Assembly (NCBI GenBank): GCA_964600775.1
Contig: CAZRKJ010000010.1
Coordinates: 1-21,160 of the forward strand
Length of the DNA: 21,160 bases
From: an uncultured Acholeplasma sp.
Lineage (GTDB): Bacteria > Bacillota_I > Bacilli_A > Acholeplasmatales > Acholeplasmataceae
Direction: 5' to 3'
The notes under the pieces are model-generated. The model was not told the origin of the DNA. It did no database searches and saw only the letters and a list, made by a program, of their open reading frames with translations. The position numbers and the translations under genes were made by a program. Numbering within the stretch: the stretch's first letter is position 1; each line of letters opens with the position of its first letter. Of the stretch, positions 1 to 19,982 are shown piece by piece.

Positions 1-596
1 TTTGGATCTGTAAACCAGTCAAAACGGTATGTACGCCACTCAAAATCATTTTGTGGATATGGTAGCTCATGCGATCTTGTACTAAACTCAGTTAAACTAA
101 TCCAGTTTGTCGTCCAAACACGTCTAAAATCATTTTCTACATTATTTTCAATATCAATTTCATGGTTCATGCCATTGTTATAATAATATGTCCACATTGC
201 CGTTGTAGAGCCAAATCTTGGCATAATACGCATACGTACTTCAAAACGACCAGGTCCTAATGCTTCTCTTGTTTTTATCATTGCCCCTGTACGTCTACCA
301 TGTGTATTTCCAATACCACGAAGTGGTCCATCATATAGATCGCCATTGGTTTGTAAGACAACAATACCATCTGCAGTGTAATGTACGTTTTCATAGATAA
401 CGCCACCATTGCCCACACCCCATTTAGAATTTCCTACGACCCACATATTTGGATCAATACCATTATCAAAGTCATCAAAGATGATATTATCTAAGTCCAA
501 AAATTTATTAGGATCAAACTGTGAGCCACCATCTTCAACACAGCCTACTAAAATGAGTGAAAGTATAAAGATTATTATTAAGCTTATTTTTTTCAT
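1..596 (-). CDS. Glycoside hydrolase family 16 (beta-1,3 / beta-1,3-1,4-glucanase-like) lipoprotein. The N-terminal ~198 aa are present; the 3' end runs off the window start.
   Basis: I translated the minus strand by hand. It starts with ATG at 596..594 and reads MKKISLIIIFILSLILVGC|VEDGG... The signal peptide ends in the lipobox LVGC. Further on comes ...GNSKWGVGNGGVIYENVHYTADGIVVLQTNGDLYDGPLRGIGNTHGRRTGAMIKTREALGPGRFEVRMRIMPRFGSTTAMWTYYYNNGMNHEIDIENN... The motif E-I-D-I-E matches the GH16 catalytic signature E-[ILV]-D-[IVAF]-[VILMF](0,1)-E. There is no stop in the window, so it is not in the ORF track. Confidence 0.8.
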   Translation of the reverse strand, partial: MKKISLIIIFILSLILVGCVEDGGSQFDPNKFLDLDNIIFDDFDNGIDPNMWVVGNSKWGVGNGGVIYENVHYTADGIVVLQTNGDLYDGPLRGIGNTHGRRTGAMIKTREALGPGRFEVRMRIMPRFGSTTAMWTYYYNNGMNHEIDIENNVENDFRRVWTTNWISLTEFSTRSHELPYPQNDFEWRTYRFDWFTDP

Positions 597-609
597 AGTT
601 TTACTTCCT

Positions 610-1779
610 TTATTTTTTTGCTACAACACCAAATGCATTTGTTACACCTACATGGATTGCACCATAAATGATGTTTTCATCACCTAATGTAGTGTACTTA
701 ATGCTAATATCAGTAATTTTTGAATCAATACCTTCATTGACCCAATCTAAATATTGTTGACCAAGTGCTTTTATACGACCACCAATAAAGAATTGACGGT
801 AGTTAAATATATAACTTAAGTTAGAAATCAATTCACCTAGTTTATTTGCTGTATACTTTACAACGTCTAAAACGACTTGATCATTGTTGTAAAAAGCTTT
901 AACAACATCACGGTATCTAAATTGCATGGCCACTTCTGTTTCTTTGCCCATATATTGTTGATAACTAATTTGTTTTTTTATTGAGTTAATCGAACAGATT
1001 AAGTCATAAACCATGTTGTTACCAAATTGATCATATGTAGAAATTAATCCAAACTCTGCAGCATATCCATGATCACCTTCAATGATTCTGTTTTCATTTA
1101 AGATAGCACCACCCATACCTGAATCTACATAGATTAAAATACCATTTTCTGCAATACGTTCAATCTTACCGTAGTGCTGTTCTCCAATAATTGCTAAGTT
1201 GATGTCATTTTTTAAAATAACGTTTAAATTTAGTTTTGCTTCAAAAAATGACCTTACTGGTATATCTTTTACGATTTTAAATTTAACCGAGTTTTCTATT
1301 TCATCATTAAACTTATTAATTTGTCCTGGAGCAGATACAATAATTGAAATAATTTTACATTTATCTGTTTCAAATTGTGTTTTCTTATTTAAGATAATTG
1401 AACAAATTTCGTTCAAATCATCTAAAGTTAAAAACTCTCTTTCTTCGATTACAGTTTCATCAAATATTTGACCATTTAAATAAGAAAAGACAATTTTAAT
1501 GTAGGTCGATCCAAATTCAACTACACCTAAAATACCTGCATCTTTTTTTATTGCATAAAGTGTACGTTTATACTTTTCATTGTCATCACCATTAACTGCT
1601 AGATTTTCAACTAAATGCATACTCTCCATCTCAGAAAGTATTTTAAAAACAGCTGTTTTGGATAACTTTAAAGCTTTTGCAATATGTGTTGCAGACATTT
1701 TTTTTGTATATAAAAGTCTCAAAATAGATTCGATATTATTTTCTCTAATACCTGTATTTTTTACACCTTTTGCTGTCAT
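610..1779 (-). CDS. ROK-family transcriptional regulator (NagC/XylR-like repressor with an N-terminal wHTH)
   Basis: 389-aa ORF. The N-terminus (NTGIRENNIESILRLLYTKKMSATHIAKALKLSKTAVFKILSEME) looks like a MarR-type wHTH. The ROK signature region is LIYVDSGMGGAILNENRIIEGDHGYAAEFGLIS. The gene lies 13 nt upstream of the GH16 gene on the same strand. Confidence 0.8.
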   Translation of the reverse strand: MTAKGVKNTGIRENNIESILRLLYTKKMSATHIAKALKLSKTAVFKILSEMESMHLVENLAVNGDDNEKYKRTLYAIKKDAGILGVVEFGSTYIKIVFSYLNGQIFDETVIEEREFLTLDDLNEICSIILNKKTQFETDKCKIISIIVSAPGQINKFNDEIENSVKFKIVKDIPVRSFFEAKLNLNVILKNDINLAIIGEQHYGKIERIAENGILIYVDSGMGGAILNENRIIEGDHGYAAEFGLISTYDQFGNNMVYDLICSINSIKKQISYQQYMGKETEVAMQFRYRDVVKAFYNNDQVVLDVVKYTANKLGELISNLSYIFNYRQFFIGGRIKALGQQYLDWVNEGIDSKITDISIKYTTLGDENIIYGAIHVGVTNAFGVVAKK

Positions 1780-1817
1780 ATGTATGCGCCCCAGTCTTCA
1801 TTAATTTTTATTGATTT

Positions 1818-1843
1818 GGGCAAGCAATCGTATTTGCTTGCCC
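1818..1843. other. Perfect GC-rich stem-loop (GGGCAAGCAA tcgtat TTGCTTGCCC) between the giant lipoprotein gene and the ROK gene
   Basis: The arms are perfectly complementary over 10 bp with a 6-nt loop, in an otherwise AT-rich spacer. No U-tract follows on either strand, so it is not a canonical intrinsic terminator. Confidence 0.4.
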
Positions 1844-1863
1844 AATCAACATATTTATATATC

Positions 1864-4800
1864 TTAAACCAATGCTATTTGAACTTTCAATGTCGGTACG
1901 AAACCTTCACTAATTGTCCATATTTGAGTATCAAATGATGCATAAGTTGCTGCACTTACAAACGCTGCTGGACTTATAAAGTATGTGCCATCATCTAAAA
2001 CTGCACCAAAGGATCTAAAGTTCGTTGTACCAATCGTATCTATATTTGCATAGACATCAACAACAGTACCAAAGTTTGTTGCTAGTAATCCAACCGCTGT
2101 TGGACCATTATCTGATACAGCTTTACCTAATACAATAATATTTTGTAAAACGCCGTGATTGTGTAGTACTAATGCAGCACCATTTGCACCATAAACATAT
2201 ACTTCAATGTCAACGACGACATCTTGTATTGTACCTGCATTATGTGCAACTAATCCAGCAGACCATGCATTGGCTTCCACATATCCTTCAAAGTGTGTAT
2301 TTTTAACGACACCATCAGCACCAACAAAACCAAAGAATGCCTTTGTCCAACCACCATTTGGCATGTTAATACCAGAAATCATAAAACCTTGACCATCAAA
2401 GATGCCAGTAAATGCAACACCTGCAATACCTTCATCTTCATTAGGAGCAATACCTATAGCCACCCAGTTTTGTGTTAGTTCTATATTTGCTGTAAGCATA
2501 TAAGTCTTGCTTAGCATTTCAGGATCAACTTGTCCTGAAAGATATGTTAATAGTTCTGTTTCATTAGAAATGTATACTGTATCACCTAAAACTGGTTCCT
2601 CAGATGATTCATTTATAAGTACTGGAACCATACCCTCAACGATTAACCATATAGCATCATCAAACGCTGCATAAGTAGCTGCTGCTAAAAAGCTTGCATT
2701 TGAAATAATATATGTACCATCATCTAAAACTGCACCAAGGGATTTAAAGTTTGGTGTACCAACTGTATCTGCGTTTGCATATACTTCAACAACAGTACCA
2801 AAGTTTGTTGCTACTAAGCCGTTTGCACCTGAATCAGATGCAACAGAACCTAAAACTACTATGTTTTGTAAAATACCGTGATTATGTACTGCAATTGCAC
2901 CACCATTACCACCATATACATAAACATCAATTTCAACGATAACATCTTGAATGGTACCTGCATTGTGTGCAACTAATCCAGCAGACCATGCATTACCTTC
3001 TACATATCCTTCAAAATGTGTATTCTTAACAACACCATCAGCACCAACAAAACCAAAGAATGCTTTTGTCCAACCACCATTTGGCATGTTAATACCAGAT
3101 ATTTTATAGCCTTGTCCATCAAAGATACCAGTAAATGCAACACCTGCAATACCTTCATCTTCATTAGGTGCAATACCTATAGCAACCCATGGTGATGTTA
3201 ATACGATATCACTTGTTAATACAAATGTTTTACTTAAATTTTCAGGATTTGTTTGACCTGACAATAAATTAACTAATTCAGTTTCATTTGAAATATATAC
3301 AGTATCATCAACGATTTCAGGGTTATAAACTGCACTAAATGTTTTTTCTGTAGATACTTCAGTACCTTCAATAGATACAACTACAGTAAATGAAAAACTT
3401 GCAGAAACTAATTCTAAATCAAAAGTTACTAAACCTGTTTGATCAATTGAAACACCATTGACTGCATCCTTAAGCGCATAGACTAATAACTCTTCACCTA
3501 AAGGATTAAGAATCGTTGTATCCACTTGTAGTGATTCATCAATTTCTAAGTCTAATGCTACGATTGTATTATCAATTGAAATACCTAACTCTGGAACAAT
3601 CACTGGCGGTACAAAACCTTCATATTTTAACATTGGTGCAATACCATCAGTAACATACCAAATATCTGTATCAAAGGCTGCATAGGTTGCAGCTAAGATA
3701 AAGTTTTGAGCAGAGATGATGTATGAACCATCATCAACGACAGTTCCAAAGGATGCTAGATTTGCTGTGCCTACTGTATCTGCATTCGCAAATACATTTT
3801 CAAGTGTACCAAAGTTTGTTGCAACTAAACCAACAGCAGTTGGACCGCTATCAGATGCAACGCGTCCTAAGACAACGATATTTTTTAATAGACCATGGTT
3901 ATGTACAACAATTGCACCACCATTCGCTCCATAAACATATACAACCATCTCAACAACAACATCTTGAATGGTACCTGCATTATGCGCAGCAATCGCACCA
4001 GACCATGCATTCGCTTCTACATAACCTTCAAAGTGAGTATTTTTAACAACTGCATCTGCGCCAATAAACCCAAAGAATGCTTTTGTCCAACCACCACCTG
4101 GCATATCAATACCAGAGATTGTATAGCCTTGTCCATCAAAGATGCCTGTAAATGGAACACCTACAATACCATCATCTTCATTTGGTGCTAAACCAATTGC
4201 AGTCCAAGGTGTTTCTAAAACAATATCATTTGTTAAGACAAATGTCTTACTTAAGTTTTCAGGATTCATTTGTCCTGAAAGTAAGTTTAATAATTGTGCT
4301 GCTGTAGAAATATATACAGTATCATCAACGATTTCAGGATTATAAACACCTGTAAATGCACGTTCTGCAGTAATTTCTGTACCTTCAATTGTGACTACAA
4401 CTGTAAATGAGAAACTAGATGCGACAAGTTCTGGATCAAATGTAACTAAACCAGATGCATCAATACTTACCCCTGCAACTGGTGCTTTAAGTGCATACTC
4501 TAATACTTCACCACCACTAGGGTTAACAACTTCAGCATTAATTTGAAGTGTTTCAGACACTTCTACATCAACTTCTAATACCGTGTTTCTAATTGCTACA
4601 GCACGCTCTAAAACGATTACAGGTGGCTCAAAACCATCATGTTTTAATAACGGATATGTACCATCTGCAATATACCAACGATCTTGATCAAATGCAGACC
4701 AAGTAGATGCTGATTTCATATCTACTGTTGGTAGCATGTAATTTGGATTAGTCGTAGGAACAAATGCTGCATAGTTTGGTGTTTCAAGTGTTTGATAATC

Positions 4801-5712
4801 TCCATAAACTTCAACCATAGAACCATCATTGGCAACAACTAAACCAGCTGAACGTCCGGATGTATTTGGATTGGTTTCACTAACAACTTTACCAATACCA
4901 TAAGCATATTGGATTAAACCTCTATTGACAGATACAATAGATCCTGCAGAAGTTCCTGCAACAGTTACAACCATATTTGAAACAACATTTTCAATTAAAC
5001 CTTCATTAATACCTGCAATACCACCAGACCATCCGGTTGCATTTACAACACCTTCAAAAGCCGTGTTTCTAACAATGGCTGTAGGTCCGATTTGTGCAAA
5101 GAATCCACCATTAAATAATGGTTCTTCACTTGAAATATCAATACCGCTAATTGTAAAACCATTACCATCAAATATACCAGTAAATGGATCACCAGCAATA
5201 ATATCACCAGTGTCTAGTTCAACTTCAGCAACACCAATTGGTGTCCATGGTGCAGTTAACTCAATATGATTCATTAAGATATATGAACCAGCTAATCCAC
5301 CTTCTGCTGTATTGATCGCACGTAGTTGTGCTTCTGTTGTAATCTCAACAGCTTCTACACCTACATTTTCAACTGTAAAGACAATTGTTTGACGAATTGT
5401 TGGATCATATACAGATGTTGCTACAACTGTAAATGTTGTACCATCTTCAACCGCATTACCAATGTTTAATTTATCATCAGTAATTGATACGCCACTGACA
5501 ATGCCTTGAACTGTAAATCGAATCTGTTGATTTGAACCTTCAGGTAATGCAACTGCAACTAATGTATGCTCACCTGGGGTCAATGTTGTTGAATCCATTT
5601 GAAATTGAATAGATTCAACATCTGGCACGTTTGGTTGTTCTTCTTCACTTGGGGTACATGCTACTAAGACAAGTGATAAAAGAAGTACCATAATCGTAAT
5701 AATCTTTTTCAT
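1864..5712 (-). CDS. Very large surface lipoprotein (1282 aa). Domain order: N-terminal Big_2-like Ig domain, then four tandem GLUG-motif beta-solenoid-like modules (A to D), with extra Ig-like domains after modules A and B.
   Basis: The ORF starts MKKIITIMVLLLSLVLVAC|TPSEEE (lipobox LVAC). A putative RBS reads AGAGGGTAAAGT-ATG. Modules begin at aa ~119, 465, 804 and 1045. Each contains FTGIFDG[QN]G[YF]xISGI...GG(W)TKAFFGF[VI]GAD..V.NTHFEG.V......G...HNAGTI.DV.V...V...G.NGGA...HNHG.L.N..VLG. The N-terminal module reads W-S-G-G-I-A-G-I-N-E-G-L-I-E-N-V, which resembles the GLUG (PF07581) consensus. Ig-like segments: ESIQFQMDSTTLTPGEHTLVAVALPEGSNQQIRFTVQG; and VSETLQINAEVVNPSGGEVLEYALKAPVAGVSIDASGLVTF. 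Confidence 0.85.
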   Translation of the reverse strand: MKKIITIMVLLLSLVLVACTPSEEEQPNVPDVESIQFQMDSTTLTPGEHTLVAVALPEGSNQQIRFTVQGIVSGVSITDDKLNIGNAVEDGTTFTVVATSVYDPTIRQTIVFTVENVGVEAVEITTEAQLRAINTAEGGLAGSYILMNHIELTAPWTPIGVAEVELDTGDIIAGDPFTGIFDGNGFTISGIDISSEEPLFNGGFFAQIGPTAIVRNTAFEGVVNATGWSGGIAGINEGLIENVVSNMVVTVAGTSAGSIVSVNRGLIQYAYGIGKVVSETNPNTSGRSAGLVVANDGSMVEVYGDYQTLETPNYAAFVPTTNPNYMLPTVDMKSASTWSAFDQDRWYIADGTYPLLKHDGFEPPVIVLERAVAIRNTVLEVDVEVSETLQINAEVVNPSGGEVLEYALKAPVAGVSIDASGLVTFDPELVASSFSFTVVVTIEGTEITAERAFTGVYNPEIVDDTVYISTAAQLLNLLSGQMNPENLSKTFVLTNDIVLETPWTAIGLAPNEDDGIVGVPFTGIFDGQGYTISGIDMPGGGWTKAFFGFIGADAVVKNTHFEGYVEANAWSGAIAAHNAGTIQDVVVEMVVYVYGANGGAIVVHNHGLLKNIVVLGRVASDSGPTAVGLVATNFGTLENVFANADTVGTANLASFGTVVDDGSYIISAQNFILAATYAAFDTDIWYVTDGIAPMLKYEGFVPPVIVPELGISIDNTIVALDLEIDESLQVDTTILNPLGEELLVYALKDAVNGVSIDQTGLVTFDLELVSASFSFTVVVSIEGTEVSTEKTFSAVYNPEIVDDTVYISNETELVNLLSGQTNPENLSKTFVLTSDIVLTSPWVAIGIAPNEDEGIAGVAFTGIFDGQGYKISGINMPNGGWTKAFFGFVGADGVVKNTHFEGYVEGNAWSAGLVAHNAGTIQDVIVEIDVYVYGGNGGAIAVHNHGILQNIVVLGSVASDSGANGLVATNFGTVVEVYANADTVGTPNFKSLGAVLDDGTYIISNASFLAAATYAAFDDAIWLIVEGMVPVLINESSEEPVLGDTVYISNETELLTYLSGQVDPEMLSKTYMLTANIELTQNWVAIGIAPNEDEGIAGVAFTGIFDGQGFMISGINMPNGGWTKAFFGFVGADGVVKNTHFEGYVEANAWSAGLVAHNAGTIQDVVVDIEVYVYGANGAALVLHNHGVLQNIIVLGKAVSDNGPTAVGLLATNFGTVVDVYANIDTIGTTNFRSFGAVLDDGTYFISPAAFVSAATYASFDTQIWTISEGFVPTLKVQIALV
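1867..5358. repeat. Four intragenic tandem direct repeats. Unit D is about 1867..2580, C about 2581..3303, B about 3304..4320, A about 4321..5358. B, C and D are roughly 85 to 92% identical at the DNA level over stretches of a few hundred bp. Unit A is more diverged.
   Basis: I aligned by eye. Compare 2279..2470 with 2999..3190 and with 4019..4210. One example is gtccaaccaccatttggcatgttaataccaga, a 32-nt exact match between units C and D. Other long near-identical runs end in ...ccttgtccatcaaagat.ccagtaaatgcaacacctgcaataccttcatcttcattagg... Confidence 0.8.
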
Positions 5713-5727
5713 ACTTTACCCTCTTTT

Positions 5728-5744
5728 TCTGTACACTGTGTGTA
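5728..5744. promoter_or_regulatory. Inverted repeat TGTACAC-tgt-GTGTACA in the 45-nt gap between the permease gene and the giant lipoprotein gene
   Basis: The arms are 7 bp with a 3-nt spacer. It sits immediately upstream of the lipoprotein RBS. It could be an operator or a short RNA hairpin. Confidence 0.3.
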
Positions 5745-5757
5745 CATATTATTTTAA

Positions 5758-6627
5758 TTAACCTTTTAATCCACCTGCTACCATGTTTTCCATAATTGTA
5801 TTTCTAAATGCAATAAATACTGCAAGAATCGGTACAATTGAAATAATCATTGTAGCAAACATTTCGGCATAAGCCCCTTGAGAAACCATCGTTTGTGTTA
5901 GGTACCTAATACCTAATGCAAGCGTTGGATAATTCCTTAAATAAATTGATGGTGTGATGTAATCATTCCATATACCAATACCATAAATAATTGCTAAAGA
6001 TATCATGATCGGTTTAGCCATCGGTAGCATGATCTTTAAGAATACTTGAAAATCTGATGCACCATCAACAAATGCAGCTTCTGCATAGGTTGGTGAAATG
6101 TTTTTAAAATACCCATGCATAATAAAGAATGTAAAGCCAAATGATCCTGAATACAATACTAAGATACCTAAAATAGAATTATATAAACCTAGCGATTGCA
6201 TTAATCTAAACTGCGCTGGTAACGTACCAACAATCGGCATTATTAATGTGAATAATGCAATACTATATATCAGATTACGTCCTTTAAAACGGTATCTAGC
6301 TATAACATATGCTGCCATTGATGAAAGCATTGTATTAATGAATGTTGCAAGTAATGTAATGACCACACTTAATAAAAACATATGTGTAATATTAAATGTA
6401 CCTGCTGCTGTTTGCATGTTATAACCTAAAACATTCATGTAATTTCTAAAACCAAAGGACTGTGGTAATGCCCAAATATTTGTAAAGAACTCTTGATTGG
6501 ATTTAAAGGAGTTCACAAGCATCCATGCAAACGGAAATAATAATGTAAATGCATAAATAGAAAATGCGCCAAATATGATCCACAATATTACTCTTGCAGG
6601 TGTTGAATAAAAGCGATGTGTCCTCAT
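5758..6627 (-). CDS. Carbohydrate ABC transporter permease (CUT1 family, MalG-like)
   Basis: 289-aa polytopic membrane protein. The EAA-like region is ...YAEAAFVDGASDFQVFLKIMLPMAKP... The ATG start overlaps the upstream permease stop in a TAATG-type junction at 6627. Confidence 0.85.
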   Translation of the reverse strand: MRTHRFYSTPARVILWIIFGAFSIYAFTLLFPFAWMLVNSFKSNQEFFTNIWALPQSFGFRNYMNVLGYNMQTAAGTFNITHMFLLSVVITLLATFINTMLSSMAAYVIARYRFKGRNLIYSIALFTLIMPIVGTLPAQFRLMQSLGLYNSILGILVLYSGSFGFTFFIMHGYFKNISPTYAEAAFVDGASDFQVFLKIMLPMAKPIMISLAIIYGIGIWNDYITPSIYLRNYPTLALGIRYLTQTMVSQGAYAEMFATMIISIVPILAVFIAFRNTIMENMVAGGLKG

Positions 6628-7571
6628 TAGTATTCAACCTCCGTAAAGAATAGATTCAGTGTCCTTCTCGTTAACAATATAATTGGTAACCCAAATATGG
6701 ATAATATAATACCAAATGTTGCCATATAGGCGATATTTTGATTTTGAATAACTGAGTTATATATAGCAAGAGCAATCGTATTGGTATCACCACTTGTTGG
6801 CGTTAAAAATAGTGGTTGTAAGAGCGCTGTAAATACCGATGTCATACCTAGAATAAAGGTTGTGACAATTGTTGGCCAAATAAGCGGAATAACAACTGTA
6901 GTAAACTCTTTAAAGAAGCCAATGCCTTCTAATTGTCCATATTCCATCAATTCTTCTGGAATACGGGTAATTGCACCTGTCATTAAGATAATGTTGAACC
7001 CTAAACCTACCCAAACACCGTAGACAAAGATCATTATTTGGTTGGTTGGGTAGCTACCAAACCATGATGGTACAATAACTGTTGAATCAAACATACCAAA
7101 GAACCACTTATAAATATCGTTTACTGGACCTAAATTAGAGTCAAATGTAAATGAGAATGCCATCGTCATAACTACTATTGGTAAAATCGATGGTAAGAAG
7201 TATACAACTCTAAAGAATCCAGAAAATGGTACTTTTTTAAATAAGAAATAAGAAAATGCCATTGATAAAGGTAATATAACTAAACTATTAATCGGCATGT
7301 AAAAAAGTGAATTAATAATTGTTCTTCTGGTCCACTCATCATTAGCGATTCTATCAAAGAACATTACATAATTATCAAACCCGCTATAGATGTATCGACC
7401 TTCAGTCCATGAAAACTTTTGAAAAGTTAAAACAATCGTATCGAAGTTGACATACCCAAAAAACAGTGCAAACTGAAGTACGGGGTATGCCAACATTAGT
7501 GTAATAAATATACGTTGTTTAGTTTTTTTCTTAAGTATTCTTTTTTTCTTTACTTCGATACTCTTTTCCAC
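6627..7571 (-). CDS. Carbohydrate ABC transporter permease (CUT1 family, MalF-like)
   Basis: Polytopic membrane protein. The region ...MEYGQLEGIGFFKEFTTVVIPLIWPT... matches the permease signature region. The ORF-track start at 7601 is a TTG that overlaps the solute-binding-protein gene by 25 nt and has no SD. An in-frame GTG at 7571 (..IDVEK..) lies just after that gene's stop and has a weak AGGT SD, so I prefer it. The start is uncertain by about 30 nt. Confidence 0.75.
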   Translation of the reverse strand: MEKSIEVKKKRILKKKTKQRIFITLMLAYPVLQFALFFGYVNFDTIVLTFQKFSWTEGRYIYSGFDNYVMFFDRIANDEWTRRTIINSLFYMPINSLVILPLSMAFSYFLFKKVPFSGFFRVVYFLPSILPIVVMTMAFSFTFDSNLGPVNDIYKWFFGMFDSTVIVPSWFGSYPTNQIMIFVYGVWVGLGFNIILMTGAITRIPEELMEYGQLEGIGFFKEFTTVVIPLIWPTIVTTFILGMTSVFTALLQPLFLTPTSGDTNTIALAIYNSVIQNQNIAYMATFGIILSIFGLPIILLTRRTLNLFFTEVEY

Positions 7572-7576
7572 ATCTA

Positions 7577-9022
7577 TTAACCTGCTATTTCTGATTGCCA
7601 AGTAGCCCAGTTTGATTGAATATGTTGATAACTACTTACAAATATACCACGTACATCATAGGTATTATCAACCAACCAAGCTTCTGGGTTTATTAGGTAA
7701 TCACGTGTATTGTAATGATTAAATAATGTTGCATAATATTGAAGATTTTGTGGTGGCCATTCTAGCCCAACTTTACCTTCAAGGATCATTAATGAGTTAC
7801 TATATAAGTTAAATTTTTGACTATTTCTGTTAATTTCAAGAATTGATTTAGAAAATTCTGAAAGATTTTCCTCATCAAGTTCTACTGTGTCATAGTTCAT
7901 TGCAAGTAGTACACCATTGGTTTTTTCTGTAAATGTTGCAATACTTGAATCTTTTGCTAAGAATAATAAGAATTGTTTTGCTAATTCTTTATTCGGTGCA
8001 CGTTTTGGAATAATGATTGAATCTCCTGCACCTACTGTATAGTTCACACGAATTGGATTGCCTTCTGTATCGGTTTTAGCATTCGCCATAAATGGTGCTG
8101 GCATCATACGCATTTCCATAATTTCAGGGTTAATATTAGCAATCATTTCACTTTCAAGCCACTGTGCATTAGGAATCATTGCAGCATAACCATTTAAAAA
8201 GTCCATTTGAGCAGCCATATATTGTTTACCAACCGAATCCTCCACAGAGTGTAATGGCTTTTTAGCAATCAAATTTGTCCACGCTTCTAAAGCTTGATAA
8301 TGACCTGGGTGTAGATCTGGGTTAAATACATCCGTTGAACCAAGTGCAGTGTATGTTTCAAAGAAGCCTGTTCCATTTATTTGAGCCCACCAGTCAAAAA
8401 CTAAGTAATCCCAGTAATAAGTTTCTTGACTCCATACAAAGGGTTTAATAGTTGCTGCATTGGGTTTCATATCATTTGGATCAACTTTAATGTTTGCATT
8501 ATAAATTGTATCCGCTAAAGTTACCAATTCTTCATAAGTTTCAGGAACTTCCCATCCGTTATCTCTAAACATTTTTGCATTATATACTATACCACCAACT
8601 CCATTAGTCCATGGTAACTTATAATATGTATCGTTAAATGATGCTGTTTCTAATAAACTTTGATCAATTTTATCTATTAGTTTAATACCATTTTCTACTT
8701 CTTGCTGCATTAAATCATTTAGCGGTTCAATGTGTCCTTGAACAGCTAAAAATTCCCAGTTAATACCATGGGAGAAGAATATATCATCAGGTGAACCATT
8801 TTGTAATCTATTTGGAATATCTGATGCCAAATCAGGATTTGCTTCGATTGTAACCGTAACACCTGGATTTTCGGCTTCAAATTGTCTGGCAAGTGTATTA
8901 ATCCAAACTTGCCCATACCCGCCTAAATATACAGATATTTTTAAACTATTTGGGTCATTTGTAGTACATGAAGCAAGTACAAATGCACCAAATGCTAATA
9001 ATGTGAGAAATATTTTTTTCAT
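7577..9022 (-). CDS. Extracellular solute-binding lipoprotein of a carbohydrate ABC transporter (family 1 SBP)
   Basis: The likely true start is ATG at 9022. A GAGGTGA SD lies 5 nt upstream. The product begins MKKIFLTLLAFGAFVLASC|TTNDP (lipobox LASC). The ORF-track start at 9031 is an upstream in-frame GTG. The size (~480 aa) and W/Y-rich sequence are typical of sugar SBPs. Confidence 0.8.
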   Translation of the reverse strand: MKKIFLTLLAFGAFVLASCTTNDPNSLKISVYLGGYGQVWINTLARQFEAENPGVTVTIEANPDLASDIPNRLQNGSPDDIFFSHGINWEFLAVQGHIEPLNDLMQQEVENGIKLIDKIDQSLLETASFNDTYYKLPWTNGVGGIVYNAKMFRDNGWEVPETYEELVTLADTIYNANIKVDPNDMKPNAATIKPFVWSQETYYWDYLVFDWWAQINGTGFFETYTALGSTDVFNPDLHPGHYQALEAWTNLIAKKPLHSVEDSVGKQYMAAQMDFLNGYAAMIPNAQWLESEMIANINPEIMEMRMMPAPFMANAKTDTEGNPIRVNYTVGAGDSIIIPKRAPNKELAKQFLLFLAKDSSIATFTEKTNGVLLAMNYDTVELDEENLSEFSKSILEINRNSQKFNLYSNSLMILEGKVGLEWPPQNLQYYATLFNHYNTRDYLINPEAWLVDNTYDVRGIFVSSYQHIQSNWATWQSEIAG

Positions 9023-9059
9023 AACTTTCACCTCTTATAAGTTAATTTAGTTTACTTTA

Positions 9060-9095
9060 TCTAAAGTATATCACAGTGTGAAATCGTTTACAAGC
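9060..9095 (-). promoter_or_regulatory. Candidate sigma-A promoter of the ABC-transporter operon (-35 TTGTAA, 17-nt spacer, extended -10 TGaTATACT on the minus strand). A cre-like palindrome TGAAATCGTTTACA at 9079..9092 overlaps it.
   Basis: Read on the minus strand: TTGTAAacgatttcacactgtgaTATACT, about 35 nt upstream of the SD. The cre-like element matches the Firmicutes consensus WTGNAANCGNWNNCW at 14 of 15 positions. Confidence 0.4.
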
Positions 9096-9289: not shown

Positions 9290-9347
9290 AAAACACCTTA
9301 CCAATAATCGATAGATTTGTCATCTATGTTTTACGTTAAGGTGTTTT
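9290..9347 (-). terminator. Candidate terminator structure downstream of the flotillin gene
   Basis: 11-bp inverted repeat AAAACACCTTA ... TAAGGTGTTTT. The 36-nt loop itself holds a small hairpin ATAGAT-ttgtc-ATCTAT. A U-rich stretch follows on the minus strand. The structure starts 8 nt after the flotillin stop. Confidence 0.4.
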
Positions 9348-9355
9348 AGTTTAAA

Positions 9356-10789
9356 TTACTTACTTGATTTTGGTTTTAAATCTTCTTTTGGTTCACTTGA
9401 CTTCTTAGTTAATTTACCAGATGCATAACCTGCTAAGAGTGAGGTTAGATCAATACCTGTTGCCTCTTGAACTGAGGATAGTATTTGTGTCGATGAGTTT
9501 ACGATATCTCCAACCAATTTGGTTGAATTGCCATCACCGTACATTGTGATCTTATCTACTTGTGATAATGGTTGAGCAGCTGCACCTACAATTTTTGGTA
9601 AAACTTCAGAATCTAATATAAGTTCTAAGACTGCTGCTTCTTCCATTAATTTCATTGCTAATGCTTTTTTCTCAATAGCTTCTGCTTCTGCAAGACCAAC
9701 GGCTTGTATACCTTTAGCGCGTTCTTCTTCAGCAAAACGTTGTGCCTCAGCAGCCACCTTAATTGCTTCTGCCTTTTTAGCTTCTTCAATATATTTAGCT
9801 TCTGCATCTTTAGAACGTGTAAATAGATCGGCTTGGGCTTTTTGTTCTGCCGCATAACGTTTTGCATCTGCATCTTTTCTAACAACAGCATCCAAACGTT
9901 TTTCTTCAACTTCAATTTCTTTTTGTTTTAATTCAATTTCTTTTGAGCGTTTTGCAATCTCTGCCTCTTGGATTGCAATATTAACACTCTTAGATTCGTT
10001 TGCACTTTGAATTTGGTATGCTGCATCAGCAACAGCCTTTTGTGTATCTGACTTTTGTTTTAAGGATGCTTGACGTAGTTCTAAATCCGTATTTTGTTCT
10101 GCAATTTTTAATTCAGCAGTAATTCTTGCAAGGTTGGCAGACTCTTTAGCTATAGCTGTTGCAATCTCTACATCTTTTTCAGAGTTTGCACGTGCAATTG
10201 AGGCATCTTTTCTAATTTGAGTGACATTATCAACCCCAAGGTCCTCGATTACACCGTTTTTATCACTAAAGTTTTGAATCGTAATGTTAATAATCTCTAA
10301 GCCCATGCGATTCATATCTTTCATTGCAGAGTTATAGACTTGTTCAGCAAACTTTTCTCTATTCTGTACAAGTTCTTTTAACTTCATTTGACCAATGATT
10401 TCACGCATGTTACCTTCAAGTATTTCTTTTGTAACTACACGAATACCTTCTAAGTCACGTGACAGTAATATTTGTCCAGCTAGACGAATAGAATCTTCAT
10501 CTGTCATAATACGTATATTTGCAACCCCATCTACAAATATATTAATAAACTCATTTGTTGGTACCGCAGAATCTGTTTTAATATCTGTTTGAATTAAAGA
10601 CAGCGGTATCGTATCGATTCTTTCTAAGAATGGGATACGTAATGTACCTTTACCAATAATGACCCTAGATTTTCTAGGACCTGTAATAATGAATGCTTGG
10701 TCTGGTTTTACCTTTACATAGGATGCAGCAAAAAGTGCAATCAATAAGACTGCAATAATACCAACAACCAGCATAATCTGCTCTATCAT
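9356..10789 (-). CDS. Flotillin-like SPFH/band-7 domain protein (FloT/YuaG-like)
   Basis: 477 aa. It has an N-terminal TM helix (MIEQIMLVVGIIAVLLIALFAASY) and an SPFH domain. A long Ala/Glu/Lys-rich coiled-coil flotillin region follows (...EAEIAKRSKEIELKQKEIEVEEKRLDAVVRKDADAKRYAAEQKAQ...). There is a good SD (AAGAGG). No NfeD-like partner gene is adjacent. Confidence 0.8.
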   Translation of the reverse strand: MIEQIMLVVGIIAVLLIALFAASYVKVKPDQAFIITGPRKSRVIIGKGTLRIPFLERIDTIPLSLIQTDIKTDSAVPTNEFINIFVDGVANIRIMTDEDSIRLAGQILLSRDLEGIRVVTKEILEGNMREIIGQMKLKELVQNREKFAEQVYNSAMKDMNRMGLEIINITIQNFSDKNGVIEDLGVDNVTQIRKDASIARANSEKDVEIATAIAKESANLARITAELKIAEQNTDLELRQASLKQKSDTQKAVADAAYQIQSANESKSVNIAIQEAEIAKRSKEIELKQKEIEVEEKRLDAVVRKDADAKRYAAEQKAQADLFTRSKDAEAKYIEEAKKAEAIKVAAEAQRFAEEERAKGIQAVGLAEAEAIEKKALAMKLMEEAAVLELILDSEVLPKIVGAAAQPLSQVDKITMYGDGNSTKLVGDIVNSSTQILSSVQEATGIDLTSLLAGYASGKLTKKSSEPKEDLKPKSSK

Positions 10790-11517: not shown

Positions 11518-12795
11518 TTAAAGTTCAAAACTTGGTGTTTTATCCATTTTTAAATCATTATCTACAAAATCATAGAATAAATCGAAGTTTTCAATATTAG
11601 AAAAATTGATGAAATCATATTTTGCTAAATCAGCACTATCTTGGTGGATATTTGCCATCACACTTTCAATATAGTCTATTGTAATCTCTGGATGATTAAA
11701 GTCCATATCATAATGATTTAAATTTAGATGTGCTTGGGTTAGGTTTTCTTTGGCCAAATCAATTGTAACTCCTACATTTGCAAACCCATAATCTAAATTT
11801 AAATCGACATTAAACTGTCTATAGTCATGGTTTGTAAATAACATATAGTTATCTACATATACACCTTCATTTCGGTGTGCATTACTATCTAAATATGCAT
11901 GGTCCCACCCGGATGCTTCAAGCAACTGGAACCTTAAGGCAATCATACCATCACCTGAGTCAGAATACGAAAAGATAGATGTCTTATCATTAAATAGTTC
12001 AAAGTGTCTTGTTGATTCATAACCATCACCAACAACCGCACTGATATTGGTTTCAGGGTTATACCAAGATATGACACGTCCATCTGGTCCATAGTTATTT
12101 GGTGTATAGGATATGTCAAAATGTTCATTGTTTACCTGACTAACATATTGATAACGGTATTGCGCGTTATCACTATATGTAACTGTAATCATATTACTAT
12201 CTTCTAAAAATTCAAAATAAGTAAAATTCTTATCTACTTCATAAACCTTTAACTCTTTTAAGTAGAATAAATCATCCTTATAACCCATTTTTATACCGTA
12301 TTGCACTTCGGTATCATTAAATATACCTTGTGCAGTGTATCTAAGGGTTATACCACCGTCTTTAGATAAATAAACAAATGCTTCTATTTGTAGTATACCT
12401 TGAAAGGTAATATAAACATTGGCAGAAATTGCTTCATCATCAATAGCTTCCATTTGTAGTAAAACTTCATCTAACTTATCTTTATAGTGTGTTAAATACT
12501 CACTTAAGACAACATCATTGGTGTTGTTACGCATGTTATCATATACTGTTTGATATGCTGATCTTGGCAGCATATCATCAGGGTTATATGGTGTATTATT
12601 ATAAAACCTTGTAGGTATGGCCTCATCATTGGTACTTGGTACTTCAAGGACGGATGTTAACTTACTATGATAGGTTGTTACACCTTCTTTAAGGGTTTTA
12701 GGTAACTCAATTGTTGGTGCATTATTTGTAGGCGTACATGCTAACAACATAAAACTTATGATTAACATCATTGTTATGACAATTGTTTTTTTCAT
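11518..12795 (-). CDS. Hypothetical lipoprotein (425 aa), no recognisable domain
   Basis: Starts MKKTIVITMMLIISFMLLAC|TPTNN (lipobox LLAC). The composition is Y/N/D-rich. It is the last gene of the minus-strand cluster and is followed by the palindromic terminator. Confidence 0.7.
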   Translation of the reverse strand: MKKTIVITMMLIISFMLLACTPTNNAPTIELPKTLKEGVTTYHSKLTSVLEVPSTNDEAIPTRFYNNTPYNPDDMLPRSAYQTVYDNMRNNTNDVVLSEYLTHYKDKLDEVLLQMEAIDDEAISANVYITFQGILQIEAFVYLSKDGGITLRYTAQGIFNDTEVQYGIKMGYKDDLFYLKELKVYEVDKNFTYFEFLEDSNMITVTYSDNAQYRYQYVSQVNNEHFDISYTPNNYGPDGRVISWYNPETNISAVVGDGYESTRHFELFNDKTSIFSYSDSGDGMIALRFQLLEASGWDHAYLDSNAHRNEGVYVDNYMLFTNHDYRQFNVDLNLDYGFANVGVTIDLAKENLTQAHLNLNHYDMDFNHPEITIDYIESVMANIHQDSADLAKYDFINFSNIENFDLFYDFVDNDLKMDKTPSFEL

Positions 12796-13934: not shown

Positions 13935-15076
13935 CTAGATACCTAGATAATCATAAACGTTTTTAACAGTATCAATTTCACTATCATTTGAAACTGATTT
14001 TAATCGCATTTTTGTGTTCTTGATTTTAAAAAGTTGTTTAAATATTCTAACAAACCATGCCCATGGTAATAACCATGCATGTTTCTTTAAATATGGATAG
14101 GCTTCTAATAAACGTTTGCGACTAGGAAAAACTTCACCTAAAAAATATCTAAACCTAGACTTTTTTAGTCTTGTTTGTTCAAATGTTCTTTTGGTAATAT
14201 ATGGATCATGTTTTGTACCTGAACCGTGAATACCACTTTGCATAATGTAAGCCATAATGTCAAAATCTTCTCTATTTGGCTCAACTTGATTTAGAAATAT
14301 TTTGTTTAGATGCATAACTTTTTGATTAAAGACATCTAGTTTATATGTCTTTAAGTAGCCATCTAAGATATCTTTATCCATGATGTCATCATAATGATTA
14401 TAATACACCCACATATCTAATAAACTTCTAATACCTACACCAGAGGTCCTTATATGGCGTATTAAATGTGTTAACAAATAGACATACTCAAATTCTGGTT
14501 TTAGTTTATGTGTAAAGCCAAAATCTAAATAGACATTTTCCCATAACTGACTTAGGAGTACTTCATTTTCATATTCATTACTTGATGTAATACTTTGATG
14601 TAGCTCAATATAATTACCATCTATAGTTTCAAAGACATGATGGTGTGATGTTGCTGATTTAAATGTATACCCTGCATCTATTAGATTTTTTTTGCTTTAT
14701 CAAAATCTAATTTAGGTACAACACAGTCAATATCACCCATACCCCGCATATAAGTTTCTGGATATAATTGTTTTAAGTGTGAACCCTTTAAAAATACATG
14801 CTTTATTTCATGCTGATTAAAAAGTTTTTTTATGTCTTCAATAATTGCTTGTTGCTGGATATCTTTAGATACAAAAGAACCAAATGCTTGCGTAAGCATT
14901 TGATAATATTTTTGCATTTTAAAAGTAGACTGATTAATTGACTGATATACCAATCCGACTAAACCATTTTCAAATATAATTTTTGTTAGTGAAAGTTCAT
15001 CTAAGGTTTCGAATTGAAACCTTTCTTGCTTAAAACTTTTTTCTATCAATTGAAATAAAATCAGATTATTATTCAA
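13935..15076 (-). pseudogene. Nucleotidyltransferase-family protein (PF14907 / NTP_transf_5-like) split by a frameshift. The N-terminal ORF is 14681..15076 and the C-terminal ORF is 13935..14477. A +1A change (or -2A) in the A8 tract fuses them into a single ~383-aa ORF.
   Basis: The N-terminal part carries the Pol-beta-fold motif HVFLKGSHLKQLYPETYMRGMGDIDCVV. I checked the frames by hand. The upstream frame ends ...FDKAKKI*. The downstream frame is open from the codon right after a TAA at 14697..14699. It reads SKKNLIDAGYTFKSATSHHHVFETIDGNYIELHQ...LTHLIRHIRTSGVGIRSLLDMWVYYNH... into the second ORF. With 9 A's the junction would read ..DKAKKNLIDAG.. Confidence 0.7.
14686..14693 (-). repeat. 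Homopolymeric tract, A8 on the coding strand (T8 on plus), at the frameshift site of the nucleotidyltransferase gene
   Basis: Direct read of gattttttttgc at 14684..14695. Confidence 0.9.
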
Positions 15077-18717: not shown

Positions 18718-18757
18718 ATTTTATATAATATACCCTTTCATTTCTATTTTTATATAA

Positions 18758-19708: not shown

Positions 19709-19982
19709 ATGTCATACCTCCTTATACGCCGTTTAATATTATATCATGTTTTAGCCAATAAATAATGCTTAAAATATGAATATTTCTTCCAATCATTAAT
19801 TTCTTTTTAAATAAACGTTACCATATGCTTTAATTACTACATTTTGCAATAATTTAATACTTTTGGTTACAAAAATATCAATAAATTCAACATTAAGCAC
19901 AATAGTGTTTGCAATAACGGACATTCTTTGATAAACTTATTAGTGGATTTTTACATATAAAATTTAAAAAGGACGGTATACA

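What the first reader, a model, noticed from the sequence alone, without database searches (positions are those of the whole stretch)
1864..5712. Giant GLUG-repeat / Ig-domain surface lipoprotein embedded in a sugar ABC-transporter operon
A 1282-aa lipoprotein sits between the permease genes and the ROK regulator/GH16 genes. Its spacers are 45 nt and 84 nt, so it is very likely co-transcribed with the sugar-uptake machinery. It has a Big_2-like N-terminal Ig domain and then four modules. Each module has a conserved FTGIFDGQG(Y/F)xISGI segment plus several GLUG-type G-G-[LI]-[AV]-G-x-N-x-G-x-I-x-[ND]-[VC] motifs. These look like a beta-solenoid fold. Modules A and B are each followed by a further Ig-like domain. 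GLUG domains are known from IgA1-protease-like surface proteins of streptococci, but this protein has no protease domain. A lipoprotein in a likely wall-less, Acholeplasma-like organism is tethered directly to the membrane surface. I propose, as inference, that it is a glycan-capture or glycan-presenting protein. That would make it a functional analogue of SusD/SusE-like proteins for a beta-glucan utilisation locus. I believe this architecture in this context is undescribed.
Basis: partly seen in the sequence, partly recalled or inferred. Interest (0 to 1): 0.75.

Follow-up and report, generated by a model that had tools for sequence, protein, structure and literature searches.

The report
Beta-helix lipoprotein partnered with sugar importer
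A 1282-residue membrane-anchored surface protein, built from four IgA1-protease-type beta-helix modules and three Ig-like spacers, belongs to a small family always encoded right after the permease genes of one sugar-importer clade, so it is probably an uncharacterised outer "catching arm" for a GH16-degraded glycan, though binding is not shown.

Summary
ORF 1864..5712(-) encodes a 1282-aa lipoprotein whose only Cys is the lipobox Cys19. Its layout is Ig-M-Ig-M-Ig-M-M, and it lies between two CUT1 permease genes and ROK/GH16 genes.

- **Ig domain:** It models well (pLDDT 91), and its nearest solved structure is a Big_2 domain.
- **Gene context (main new result):** Every close relative examined, from Acholeplasmataceae and Clostridia, follows SBP-permease-permease in a GH16 locus. 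About 70 other GLUG-module loci do not. Scanning from the permease side, a module-bearing lipoprotein follows in 12/17 loci at ≥43% permease identity, 3/23 at 38-42% and 0/29 below. In four loci the gene overlaps the permease stop codon by 4 bp.

The most likely role is a non-catalytic glycan-capture accessory of the importer (about 0.5). This is inferred from gene context, not shown. The glycan is unsettled: the locus phosphorylase is not the characterised ACL_0729, and related loci carry GH20/NagA/NagB. The find is a new variant of a known kind.

The parts
1864..5712 (-). Gene for the 1282-aa modular lipoprotein ('X'). The stop codon is at 1864-1866.
   Evidence: identical to P0001, the only database copy, on an NCBI contig of 21160 bp
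5656..5712 (-). Lipoprotein signal peptide, aa 1-19, with lipobox L-V-A-C. Cys19 is the only Cys in the protein.
   Evidence: read by eye from the sequences, all 24 close-family members carry a lipobox
5359..5628 (-). Ig-like domain 1 (aa 29-118), the membrane-proximal domain
4621..5358 (-). Beta-helix module A (aa 119-364). It is the domain best conserved among orthologs and holds the one strict GLUG-like rung, GGIAGINEGLIENV, at aa 230.
4336..4617 (-). Ig-like domain 2 (aa 366-459)
3604..4332 (-). Beta-helix module B (aa 461-703), the module that was modelled
3319..3600 (-). Ig-like domain 3 (aa 705-798), 57% identical to Ig2
2593..3315 (-). Beta-helix module C (aa 800-1040), 73% identical to module B
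1867..2592 (-). Beta-helix module D (aa 1041-1282), 75% identical to module C. It follows C directly with no Ig spacer.
7577..9031 (-). Solute-binding lipoprotein of the CUT1-type ABC importer; first gene of the unit
   Evidence: PF01547, E 7e-26; 85% identical to the A. laidlawii ortholog
6627..7601 (-). ABC permease 1
   Evidence: PF00528
5758..6627 (-). ABC permease 2, the gene immediately upstream of X. Its clade predicts whether X is present.
   Evidence: PF00528; metagenome scan
5713..5757 (-). 45-nt permease-to-X spacer. It contains the palindrome TGTACAcacagTGTACA (5730-5746) and an AGAGGG ribosome-binding site, and has no terminator-like site on the coding strand.
1809..1851 (-). Strong hairpin in the X-to-ROK spacer, just after the X stop codon (18 bp, dG -24.8 kcal/mol, z -4.7). 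No U-tract follows it.
   Evidence: A. laidlawii has a hairpin at the same place with dG -29.5 and z -6.5; the outer stem is conserved and the inner stem differs but stays paired.
610..1779 (-). ROK-family protein with an N-terminal HTH; probable regulator of the locus
   Evidence: PF00480 1.4e-26, TrmB/MarR-type HTH
1..596 (-). GH16 lipoprotein, 5' part only (cut by the contig end). The catalytic motif is HEIDIE, the ExDxE type.
9054..9093 (-). Promoter-like hexamers upstream of the SBP gene; candidate start of the SBP-perm-perm-X transcript
   Evidence: consensus match only

Best explanation
X is a surface lipoprotein that works as an accessory of the adjacent CUT1 ABC importer. It is acylated at Cys19, so Ig1 and module A sit next to the membrane. 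Modules B-D, spaced by Ig domains, project outward as a rod of short right-handed beta-helices.

The proposed mechanism is non-catalytic and multivalent. The beta-helix modules capture the polymeric glycan that the locus's GH16 lipoproteins cleave. This holds substrate and products at the membrane so the solute-binding lipoprotein can load the permeases. In function it would resemble the SusE/F-type and SGBP-B-type proteins of Bacteroidota PULs, but it is built from the beta-helix module found in M26 IgA1 proteases.

Shown:
- lipobox
- domain anatomy
- beta-helix and Ig folds (predicted)
- kinship with GLUG / IgA1-protease modules
- strict operon linkage to one transporter clade and to GH16 genes

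Inferred:
- surface exposure
- glycan binding
- non-catalytic nature
- hand-over to the SBP
- identity of the glycan (beta-linked Glc and/or GlcNAc)
For: **(1) Conserved position in close relatives.** In every close-family locus the gene directly follows SBP-perm-perm in a GH16-containing locus, across 29-77% identity:
- A. laidlawii
- an Acholeplasmataceae MAG
- L003, L004 and L006
- L007
- Borkfalkia-type L008, L009 and L013
- uncultured Clostridia L011 and L012, and L038
- L088, which carries GH81, GH30 and GH16

**(2) Specificity.** About 70 other loci holding the same kind of module (L014-L089) have none of these neighbours.

**(3) Reciprocal test from the permease side.** A module-bearing lipoprotein lies just downstream in 12/17 metagenome loci with permease identity >=43%, 3/23 at 38-42% and 0/29 below 38%. 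The start overlaps the permease stop by 4 bp in L091, L097, L104 and L143.

**(4) Window sequence.** There is no terminator-like site between permease 2 and X, and an RBS is present.

**(6) No sign of catalysis.**
- Invariant module columns are G63, G67, G69, N98, G120 and W225; D66 of the FDG turn is about 90% conserved. No conserved acid pair is present.
- There is no hit to any GH, PL or peptidase HMM and no HExxH motif.

**(7) Partners are also lipoproteins.** The GH16s and the SBP carry lipoboxes, so all extracellular parts share one membrane surface.

**(8) Conservation pattern.** Membrane-proximal module A is the most conserved domain: 55-61% identity where modules B-D are 37-50%. Distal modules vary in number and type. 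This fits a fixed membrane-side interface with variable outward-facing modules.
Against: - No direct evidence of carbohydrate binding exists.
- No GLUG-type beta-helix has a demonstrated glycan ligand in the literature I could search.
- The best-studied Gram-positive GH16 + ABC + GH94 system, in Blautia producta, works without such a protein (PMC10318527).
- 5 of 17 loci of the closest transporter clade lack it, so it is not obligatory.
- The right-handed beta-helix is also the classic fold of polysaccharide lyases and hydrolases, so a catalytic role cannot be excluded from fold alone.
- Guilt by association cannot separate glycan binding from other accessory roles.
Confidence: 0.5

Rival explanations
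1. X is an accessory of the importer but does not bind the glycan. It would act as a docking or spacing scaffold that organises the SBP and GH16 lipoproteins, or that holds them away from or through the cell envelope. Alternatively it would be a protective stalk layer around the transporter.
For: - The operon linkage is the same as for the main explanation.
- The membrane-proximal Ig1 and module A are the most conserved part, as expected for a protein-protein interface.
- The IgA1-protease beta-helix works through protein contacts, not sugars.
- Ig-domain number varies between lineages: one N-terminal Ig in Acholeplasmataceae, two or three in most of the other members, the Borkfalkia-type proteins included.
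Against: - The GH16s and the SBP have their own lipid anchors, so they need no scaffold.
- Four repeated, fast-evolving outward modules are hard to explain by docking alone.
- No cohesin/dockerin-like partner domains are seen in the neighbouring genes.
Confidence: 0.2
2. X is an enzyme. Each beta-helix module would be a new family of glycan-cleaving or glycan-modifying catalyst (hydrolase, lyase or esterase) that complements GH16.
For: - X sits in a locus otherwise made of degradative enzymes.
Against: - Across 42 modules no conserved Asp/Glu/Lys/Arg constellation is found; only the D of the FDG turn is conserved.
- There is no HMM hit to any CAZy-type Pfam family, even at E<=10.
- Four tandem copies of a catalytic domain would be unusual.
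Confidence: 0.12
3. X is a general adhesin or variable surface antigen, as many GLUG-repeat giant surface proteins are presumed to be. Its place next to the transporter would have no functional meaning.
For: - The module is widespread in huge surface proteins with SLH, dockerin or LPXTG-type anchors in many phyla. There are 2627 representatives at E<=1e-3.
- Module number changes between close relatives: 939, 1046, 1282 and 1302 aa.
- The modules are recent DNA-level duplicates.
- X evolves faster than its neighbours: 77% identity against 85-92% to A. laidlawii.
Against: - The gene position is conserved from Acholeplasmataceae to Clostridia.
- Presence tracks the permease clade, falling 12/17, 3/23, 0/29 with permease identity, and some starts overlap the permease stop by 4 bp.
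- Generic GLUG loci show no such context.
Confidence: 0.1

Closest known systems
N-terminal beta-helix domain of M26 IgA1 metalloproteases (S. pneumoniae ZmpA/IgA1P, PDB 6xja/7jgj; G. haemolysans, 7uvk); Pfam PF05342 Peptidase_M26_N and PF07581 GLUG
   Same: - The module profile reaches GLUG-annotated proteins.
- Family member P0012 passes the Pfam threshold for PF05342.
- Neither is catalytic in itself.
   Different: - X has no M26 catalytic domain, no HExxH motif and no G5 or LPXTG parts.
- This protein itself does not reach the GLUG or M26_N HMM thresholds.
- X has four tandem helices on a lipid anchor and sits in a sugar-importer operon, not a protease.
BACOVA_03286 of Bacteroides ovatus (PDB 3n6z, 'putative immunoglobulin A1 protease'; structural-genomics entry, function unknown)
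   Different: It is a single domain from a Bacteroidota protein. Its genomic context was not examined here, and no function is known, so it does not inform mechanism.
Surface glycan-binding proteins of Bacteroidota PULs (SusD-like SGBP-A; SusE/F-like SGBP-B, e.g. BoSGBP-B of the mixed-linkage glucan PUL)
   Same: - Both are lipid-anchored, non-catalytic (here inferred) surface proteins.
- Both are encoded next to the transporter genes of a glycan locus that also encodes a surface GH16.
   Different: - The folds are unrelated: SusD is alpha-helical TPR-like and SusE/F are beta-sandwich tandems (own knowledge).
- The partner is a TonB-dependent SusC in an outer membrane, not an ABC importer in a single membrane.
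- Binding is experimentally shown for those proteins and not for X.
Gram-positive beta-glucan locus of Blautia producta (BpGH16-MLG, ABC transporter with BpSBP-MLG, BpGH94-MLG; PMC10318527)
   Same: Both loci combine a cell-attached GH16, a CUT1 ABC importer, a cytoplasmic GH94-type phosphorylase and a regulator.
   Different: - That locus has no X-like protein, and its GH16 is itself multimodular.
- The phosphorylase and GH16 of the present loci are far more divergent: the best PDB E-values are 1.7e-20 and 8e-9.
- Related loci add GH20, NagA and NagB.
Non-catalytic beta-helix binders of surfaces and polysaccharides: L. reuteri SRRP binding region (5nxk), S. pneumoniae PfbA (3zpp/4mr0), C. thermocellum Cthe_2159 (4phb)
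   Different: - These are weaker matches than the IgA1-protease type.
- They use different anchors (LPXTG or secreted) and are not linked to a transporter operon.
- Their ligand data come from my own recollection of the literature and were not checked here.

Membership tests
GLUG motif family (Pfam PF07581) | Match to the 28-residue GLUG HMM above the gathering score (20.5 bits) | tested here: not met
   No hit for the whole protein at E<=1 or for single modules at E<=10. Control proteins P0027 and P0064 score 60 and 101 bits.
GLUG motif family (Pfam PF07581) | Homology of the module to modules that carry GLUG motifs | tested here: met
   An HMM of the four window modules hits GLUG-annotated proteins P0025-P0084, with domain E-values down to 2e-25. 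phmmer of the ortholog finds 2627 representatives. UniRef names the PG-8A ortholog 'GLUG domain-containing protein'.
Peptidase_M26_N (PF05342) / M26 IgA1 protease | Match to PF05342 above threshold (27.7 bits) | tested here: not met
   There is no hit for this protein. The syntenic relative P0012 does pass, at 39.8 bits and E 4e-10.
Peptidase_M26_N (PF05342) / M26 IgA1 protease | Zinc-metalloprotease catalytic domain with HExxH | tested here: not met
   There is no HExxH motif anywhere. The whole length is accounted for by Ig domains and modules. No peptidase HMM matches.
Right-handed parallel beta-helix (pectate-lyase-like) fold | Predicted structure is a beta-helix that superposes on solved beta-helices | tested here: met
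   [not shown]
Big_2 bacterial Ig-like domain (PF02368) | Match to the Big_2 HMM | tested here: not met
   No hit for any of the three domains. Among 38 family Ig domains only one hits Big_2 (E 8e-4); four hit He_PIG.
Big_2 bacterial Ig-like domain (PF02368) | Ig-like beta-sandwich fold closest to Big_2 structures | tested here: met
   [not shown]
Bacterial lipoprotein | Signal peptide ending in a lipobox [LVI][ASTVI][GAS]C | tested here: met
   The N-terminus is MKKIITIMVLLLSLVLVAC, with a single Cys in the protein. A lipobox is present in all 24 family members (sequences) and in 13 of 14 downstream module proteins in metagenomes.
Bacterial lipoprotein | Acylation by Lgt and cleavage by Lsp | not testable with these tools
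   This needs mass spectrometry or globomycin sensitivity.
PUL-type surface glycan-binding protein (functional class, SusE/F / SGBP-B-like) | Encoded adjacent to, and co-inherited with, the transporter of a glycan-degradation locus | tested here: met
PUL-type surface glycan-binding protein (functional class, SusE/F / SGBP-B-like) | Binds the locus's target glycan without cleaving it | not testable with these tools
   The only indirect evidence is the lack of conserved catalytic residues and the lack of CAZyme HMM hits.
PUL-type surface glycan-binding protein (functional class, SusE/F / SGBP-B-like) | Sequence or fold kinship with SusD or SusE/F | tested here: not met
   There are no SusD or SusE Pfam hits. 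The fold is a beta-helix plus Ig domains. X is therefore an analogue at most, not a member.

The most novel reading that the evidence does not exclude
This small family has about 52 representatives at E<=1e-30 among 1.84 billion. Together with its shorter single-module cousins downstream of the same permease clade, it may define a previously unrecognised component of Gram-positive and Mollicute glycan-utilisation loci. That component would be an ABC-importer-coupled, lipid-anchored glycan-capture protein built from the IgA1-protease/GLUG beta-helix. If so, it would give the first molecular function (polysaccharide binding) to a module found in thousands of giant bacterial surface proteins. It would also be the first dedicated SGBP analogue for ABC-type glycan loci.
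Probability: 0.4. Interest if true: 0.7.

Novelty: new variant of a known kind. Interest (0 to 1): 0.55.

Why it matters
- **A gap in the Gram-positive model.** Current models of Gram-positive and Mollicute glycan loci contain a surface glycanase, an SBP-dependent ABC importer and cytoplasmic enzymes. They have no dedicated surface glycan-binding protein like those essential in Bacteroidota PULs. A conserved, operon-encoded beta-helix lipoprotein would fill that gap.
- **A function for the GLUG module.** The GLUG / IgA1-protease-type beta-helix is abundant in surface proteins of gut and environmental bacteria. Its role is known only as a substrate gate in one protease. A testable ligand hypothesis would help annotate thousands of 'hypothetical' giant proteins.
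- **A tractable test system.** A. laidlawii is cultivable and its ortholog (ABX81675.1) is 77% identical, so the hypothesis can be tested directly.
- **A possible new pathway.** The locus also contains a very divergent GH94-clan phosphorylase and unusual ExDxE GH16s whose substrate is unknown. Identifying the glycan could reveal a new catabolic pathway.

Tried and rejected
1. **Direct HMM annotation.** Pfam and NCBIfam on the whole protein and on each domain gave nothing usable. The NCBIfam UrtA hit (26 bits against a cutoff of 493) is noise. A PDB sequence search gave only chance PCSK9 hits with E>0.1.
2. **ACL_0729 as evidence for a laminarin locus.** I first took the GH94-Pfam gene of the A. 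laidlawii locus to be the characterised laminaribiose phosphorylase ACL_0729. Cluster look-up shows it is ABX81671.1, not ABX81345.1. It is only remotely like solved GH94 enzymes. That argument was withdrawn.
3. **Identifying the glycan from the GH16 and SBP.**
   - The GH16 matches licheninases only weakly, at E 8e-9 for the second domain of the A. laidlawii enzyme and E>0.02 for the window fragment.
   - The SBP's best solved relative binds fucosylated lacto-N-biose blocks, at E 1e-17.
   - The mutase is closest to GlmM-type models but below their cutoffs.
   - The result is inconclusive.
4. **The palindrome TGTACA-N5-TGTACA as a repeated operator.** It occurs once in the window, which is a chance-level count.
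5. **Inspecting the model for a binding groove or aromatic platform.** Model coordinates are not exposed to the scripting tool.
6. **Literature.** Searches for GLUG function, for the A. laidlawii locus tags and for lipoprotein proteomics found no description of this protein.
7. **Link between N-terminal Ig number and a cell wall.** Acholeplasmataceae have one Ig and Borkfalkia-type proteins three. There are exceptions (P0017 and P0021 have one), and the taxonomy of several MAGs is unknown. I keep this only as a remark.

Full report
**1. The observation**

The window is one NCBI contig of 21,160 bp with 29-37% G+C. Its transporter and ROK proteins are 85-92% identical to those of Acholeplasma laidlawii, so 'Acholeplasma-like' is right.

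ORF 1864..5712 on the minus strand encodes 1282 aa. It starts MKKIITIMVLLLSLVLVAC, a lipoprotein signal with lipobox LVAC. Cys19 is the only cysteine in the protein.

The gene order on the minus strand is as follows:
- a solute-binding lipoprotein (7577-9031)
- two BPD_transp_1 permeases (6627-7601 and 5758-6627)
- a 45-nt spacer, then X
- an 84-nt spacer, then a ROK protein with an N-terminal HTH (610-1779)
- a GH16 lipoprotein cut by the contig end (1-596)

No ABC ATPase gene is in the window.

**2. Anatomy**

Self-alignment and HMMs give the layout Ig1 (aa 29-118), module A (119-364), Ig2 (366-459), module B (461-703), Ig3 (705-798), module C (800-1040), module D (1041-1282).
- Modules B, C and D are 66-75% identical to each other and 39-45% identical to A. 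Ig2 and Ig3 are 57% identical.
- The DNA repeats at spacings of 723, 1017 and 1032 nt with 74-91% identity, so the distal modules are recent duplicates.
- Each module has F[TN]GIFDG[NQ]G[YF]xISGI.
A degenerate rung, NxGx[LIVM]xx[VIC], occurs 11 times against 0.45 expected from shuffles.

**3. What the domains are**

Pfam and NCBIfam give no credible hit for the protein or for any single domain, even at E<=10. PDB sequences give none either. Other evidence restores the idea.

Evidence for the beta-helix modules:
- An AlphaFold2 model of module B, built on 42 family modules, has pLDDT 97.3 and pTM 0.93 and is almost all beta-strand.
- The matched part of the IgA1 protease is its N-terminal beta-helix, residues ~781-1070. 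That domain is a non-catalytic gate that moves about 10 A to admit the IgA1 hinge (PMC7695701).
- An HMM of the four modules finds GLUG-annotated proteins with domain E-values down to 2e-25.
- The syntenic relative P0012 passes the Pfam threshold for Peptidase_M26_N.
- UniRef calls the A. laidlawii PG-8A ortholog 'GLUG domain-containing protein'.

Evidence for the Ig domains:
- Ig1 models at pLDDT 91 with eight strands.
- At sequence level the family's Ig domains only graze He_PIG, Big_2 and similar models.

There is no HExxH motif and no room for a protease domain.

**4. Relatives and their context (the main new result)**

The protein search found 24 proteins with the same Ig/module grammar. 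By my reading of the sequences, all have lipoboxes. They carry 2-5 modules. An exhaustive search with the A. laidlawii ortholog finds only 52 cluster representatives at E<=1e-30, but 2627 at E<=1e-3. The family is small, while the module is widespread.

In every close-family locus retrieved, the gene directly follows SBP-permease-permease in a GH16 locus:

| Locus | Gene order or content |
|---|---|
| A. laidlawii (L001) | SBP-perm-perm-X-ROK-GH16-mutase-phosphorylase |
| Acholeplasmataceae MAG (L002/L010) | SBP-perm-perm-GH16-X-GH20-ROK-GH16-NagB-...-PIG-L |
| Metagenome contig (L007), cut at the 5' end | GH16-X-GH20-ROK-GH16, preceded by a permease-2 fragment |
| L003, L006 | mutase-phosphorylase-GH16-GH16-SBP-perm-perm-X |
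| L004 | same kind of locus |
| Borkfalkia-type (L008, L009, L013) | additionally GH20 and NagA |
| Uncultured Clostridia (L011, L012) and L038 | same kind of locus |
| L088 | GH81, GH30, SBP-perm-perm, two short module proteins, GH16, MalK |

About 70 loci that merely contain the module, from Clostridia, Bacteroidales, Planctomycetota and even a Methanogenium, have none of these neighbours.

I also ran the reverse test from the permease side in metagenomes. A module-bearing ORF starts just downstream of permease 2 at these rates (L090 was added by hand):

| Permease identity | Loci with a module ORF downstream |
|---|---|
| >=43% | 12 of 17 |
| 38-42% | 3 of 23 |
| <38% | 0 of 29 |

Of the 14 downstream module ORFs listed, 13 have a lipobox. 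In L091, L097, L104 and L143 the start overlaps the permease stop codon by 4 bp. Many of these proteins are short: 450-570 aa with one module.

**5. Transcription**

On the coding strand there is no terminator-like site between permease 2 and X. The spacer has an AGAGGG ribosome-binding site and a small palindrome that is also present in A. laidlawii. Promoter-like hexamers lie upstream of the SBP gene, after a terminator-like hairpin that follows the flotillin gene.

Immediately after the X stop codon there is an 18-bp hairpin (dG -24.8, z -4.7). A. laidlawii has a 22-bp hairpin at the same place (dG -29.5, z -6.5). The outer stem is conserved and the inner stem differs but stays paired. No U-tract follows, so it is not a canonical terminator. 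It nevertheless argues that X may close the transporter transcript, rather than being simply co-transcribed with ROK and GH16.

**6. Which glycan?**

I first assumed the locus phosphorylase was the characterised laminaribiose phosphorylase ACL_0729. It is not:
- It is ABX81671.1 rather than ABX81345.1.
- It is a very divergent GH94-clan protein. Its best PDB match is a cellobiose phosphorylase at E 1.7e-20, and PsLBP matches only at 1.8e-7. It has no NCBIfam match.

Other clues are mixed:
- The GH16s of the family loci are nearly all lipoproteins with ExDxE motifs (EIDIE, EIDVE or EIDFE). From my own knowledge this is the type without a beta-bulge, seen in licheninases, XTHs and CRH chitin transglycosylases.
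- These GH16s are only weakly similar to solved licheninases.
- Several related loci add GH20, NagA, NagB and a PIG-L deacetylase. L088 has GH81 and GH30.
- The SBP's closest solved relative binds lacto-N-biose-based oligosaccharides, but weakly related at E 1e-17.

The target is therefore a beta-linked Glc and/or GlcNAc glycan. 'Beta-glucan' is plausible but unproven.

**7. Mechanism**

The best-supported reading is that X is an accessory surface lipoprotein of this importer clade. Its beta-helix modules would capture the polymer that the GH16 lipoproteins cut, keeping substrate and products at the membrane for the SBP.

Support:
- The tight, reciprocal operon linkage.
- The non-catalytic nature of the nearest structural relatives.
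- The absence of any conserved catalytic constellation. Invariant columns are G63, G67, G69, N98, G120 and W225; D66 is about 90% conserved.
- The absence of CAZyme or peptidase HMM hits.
- The fact that all extracellular partners are lipoproteins.
- The conservation pattern: membrane-proximal module A is 55-61% identical across orthologs where modules B-D are 37-50% and vary in number.

Against:
- No binding evidence of any kind.
- No known glycan ligand for a GLUG-type helix in the literature searched.
- The B. producta GH16/ABC/GH94 system needs no such protein.
- 5 of 17 loci of the closest clade lack it.

My confidences are about 0.5 for glycan capture, 0.2 for a docking or spacing accessory without glycan binding, 0.12 for a new enzyme and 0.1 for an unrelated adhesin or antigen.

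**8. Comparison and novelty**

By fold and profile homology, the module belongs to the GLUG / IgA1-protease N-terminal beta-helix kind. By HMM thresholds this protein is not a formal member of PF07581 or PF05342, and it is certainly not an M26 protease.

By function it would be an analogue, not a homologue, of SusE/F-type and SGBP-B-type proteins. The A. laidlawii beta-glucan clusters have been drawn in the literature without comment on this gene (PMC6484121). I found no paper on it.

I rate it a new variant of a known kind. The anatomy and context are solid and the hypothesis is testable, but the mechanism is still inferred.

Noticed in passing
window 1809-1851 (minus strand); L001 12836-12883: There is a strong hairpin right after the stop codon of the lipoprotein gene (dG -24.8; -29.5 in A. 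laidlawii). The outer stem sequence is conserved and the inner stem differs but stays paired. No U-tract follows. It could be a transcript-end or stabiliser element, or a regulatory site, between X and the ROK gene.
   Followed up: partly
window 5730-5746; L001 ~9966-9982: The palindrome TGTACAcacagTGTACA lies in the permease-to-X spacer. A. laidlawii has a related TGTACTcaataAGTACA at the same place. It occurs once in the window, which is a chance-level count. It may be a small hairpin or an operator.
   Followed up: partly
L001 17937-20465 (A. laidlawii; ABX81671.1 in PG-8A): The 842-aa phosphorylase of the locus hits Pfam Glyco_hydro_94 but is very divergent. Its best PDB match is a cellobiose phosphorylase at E 1.7e-20, and it has no NCBIfam model. 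It is not the characterised laminaribiose phosphorylase ACL_0729. It is conserved next to a GlmM-like phosphohexomutase in most related loci, so it may have a new specificity.
   Followed up: partly
L001 14100-16556; window 1-596: The A. laidlawii GH16 (818 aa) has two catalytic motifs, EIDIE at aa 146 and EIDFE at aa 551, so it is a double GH16. The N-terminal domain, which is the part present in the window, has no solved relative better than E 0.02. All GH16s of the family loci are ExDxE-type and nearly all are lipoproteins.
   Followed up: partly
loci L091, L092, L097, L101, L111, L126, L131, L137, L143 (metagenome contigs): Short lipoproteins of 450-570 aa, with one beta-helix module and no family Ig domain, lie directly after the same permease clade. 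In some the start overlaps the permease stop by 4 bp. In L126 and L131 the SBP gene follows them. The giant protein seems to be the expanded form of a wider class of transporter-linked module proteins.
   Followed up: partly
window 5758-9031: The importer has an SBP and two permeases but no ATPase gene anywhere in the 21-kb window. Some related loci (L088, L003, L006) do have an ABC_tran gene nearby. Presumably a shared MsmK/MalK-type ATPase is encoded elsewhere.
   Followed up: no
window 11518-12795 (minus strand): This is a 425-aa lipoprotein (lipobox LLAC) with no Pfam hit at E<=0.01. Its function is unknown.
   Followed up: no
window 13935-14477 and 14681-15076 (minus strand): Two adjacent ORFs match different parts of the same Pfam family, NTP_transf_5 (profile positions 187-248 and 7-112). 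This looks like a split or frameshifted nucleotidyltransferase gene.
   Followed up: no
window 9290-9345 (minus strand): A terminator-like hairpin (AAACACCTTA...TAAGGTGTTT followed by TTTAATTT) follows the flotillin/SPFH gene (9356-10789). A 325-nt AT-rich region with promoter-like hexamers then precedes the SBP gene.
   Followed up: no
window 17365-21160: Pyruvate kinase and an ATP-type phosphofructokinase lie on the minus strand. On the plus strand, running off the right end of the contig, is an ORF that by eye resembles a second PFK-like protein (translation; not tested by HMM).
   Followed up: no
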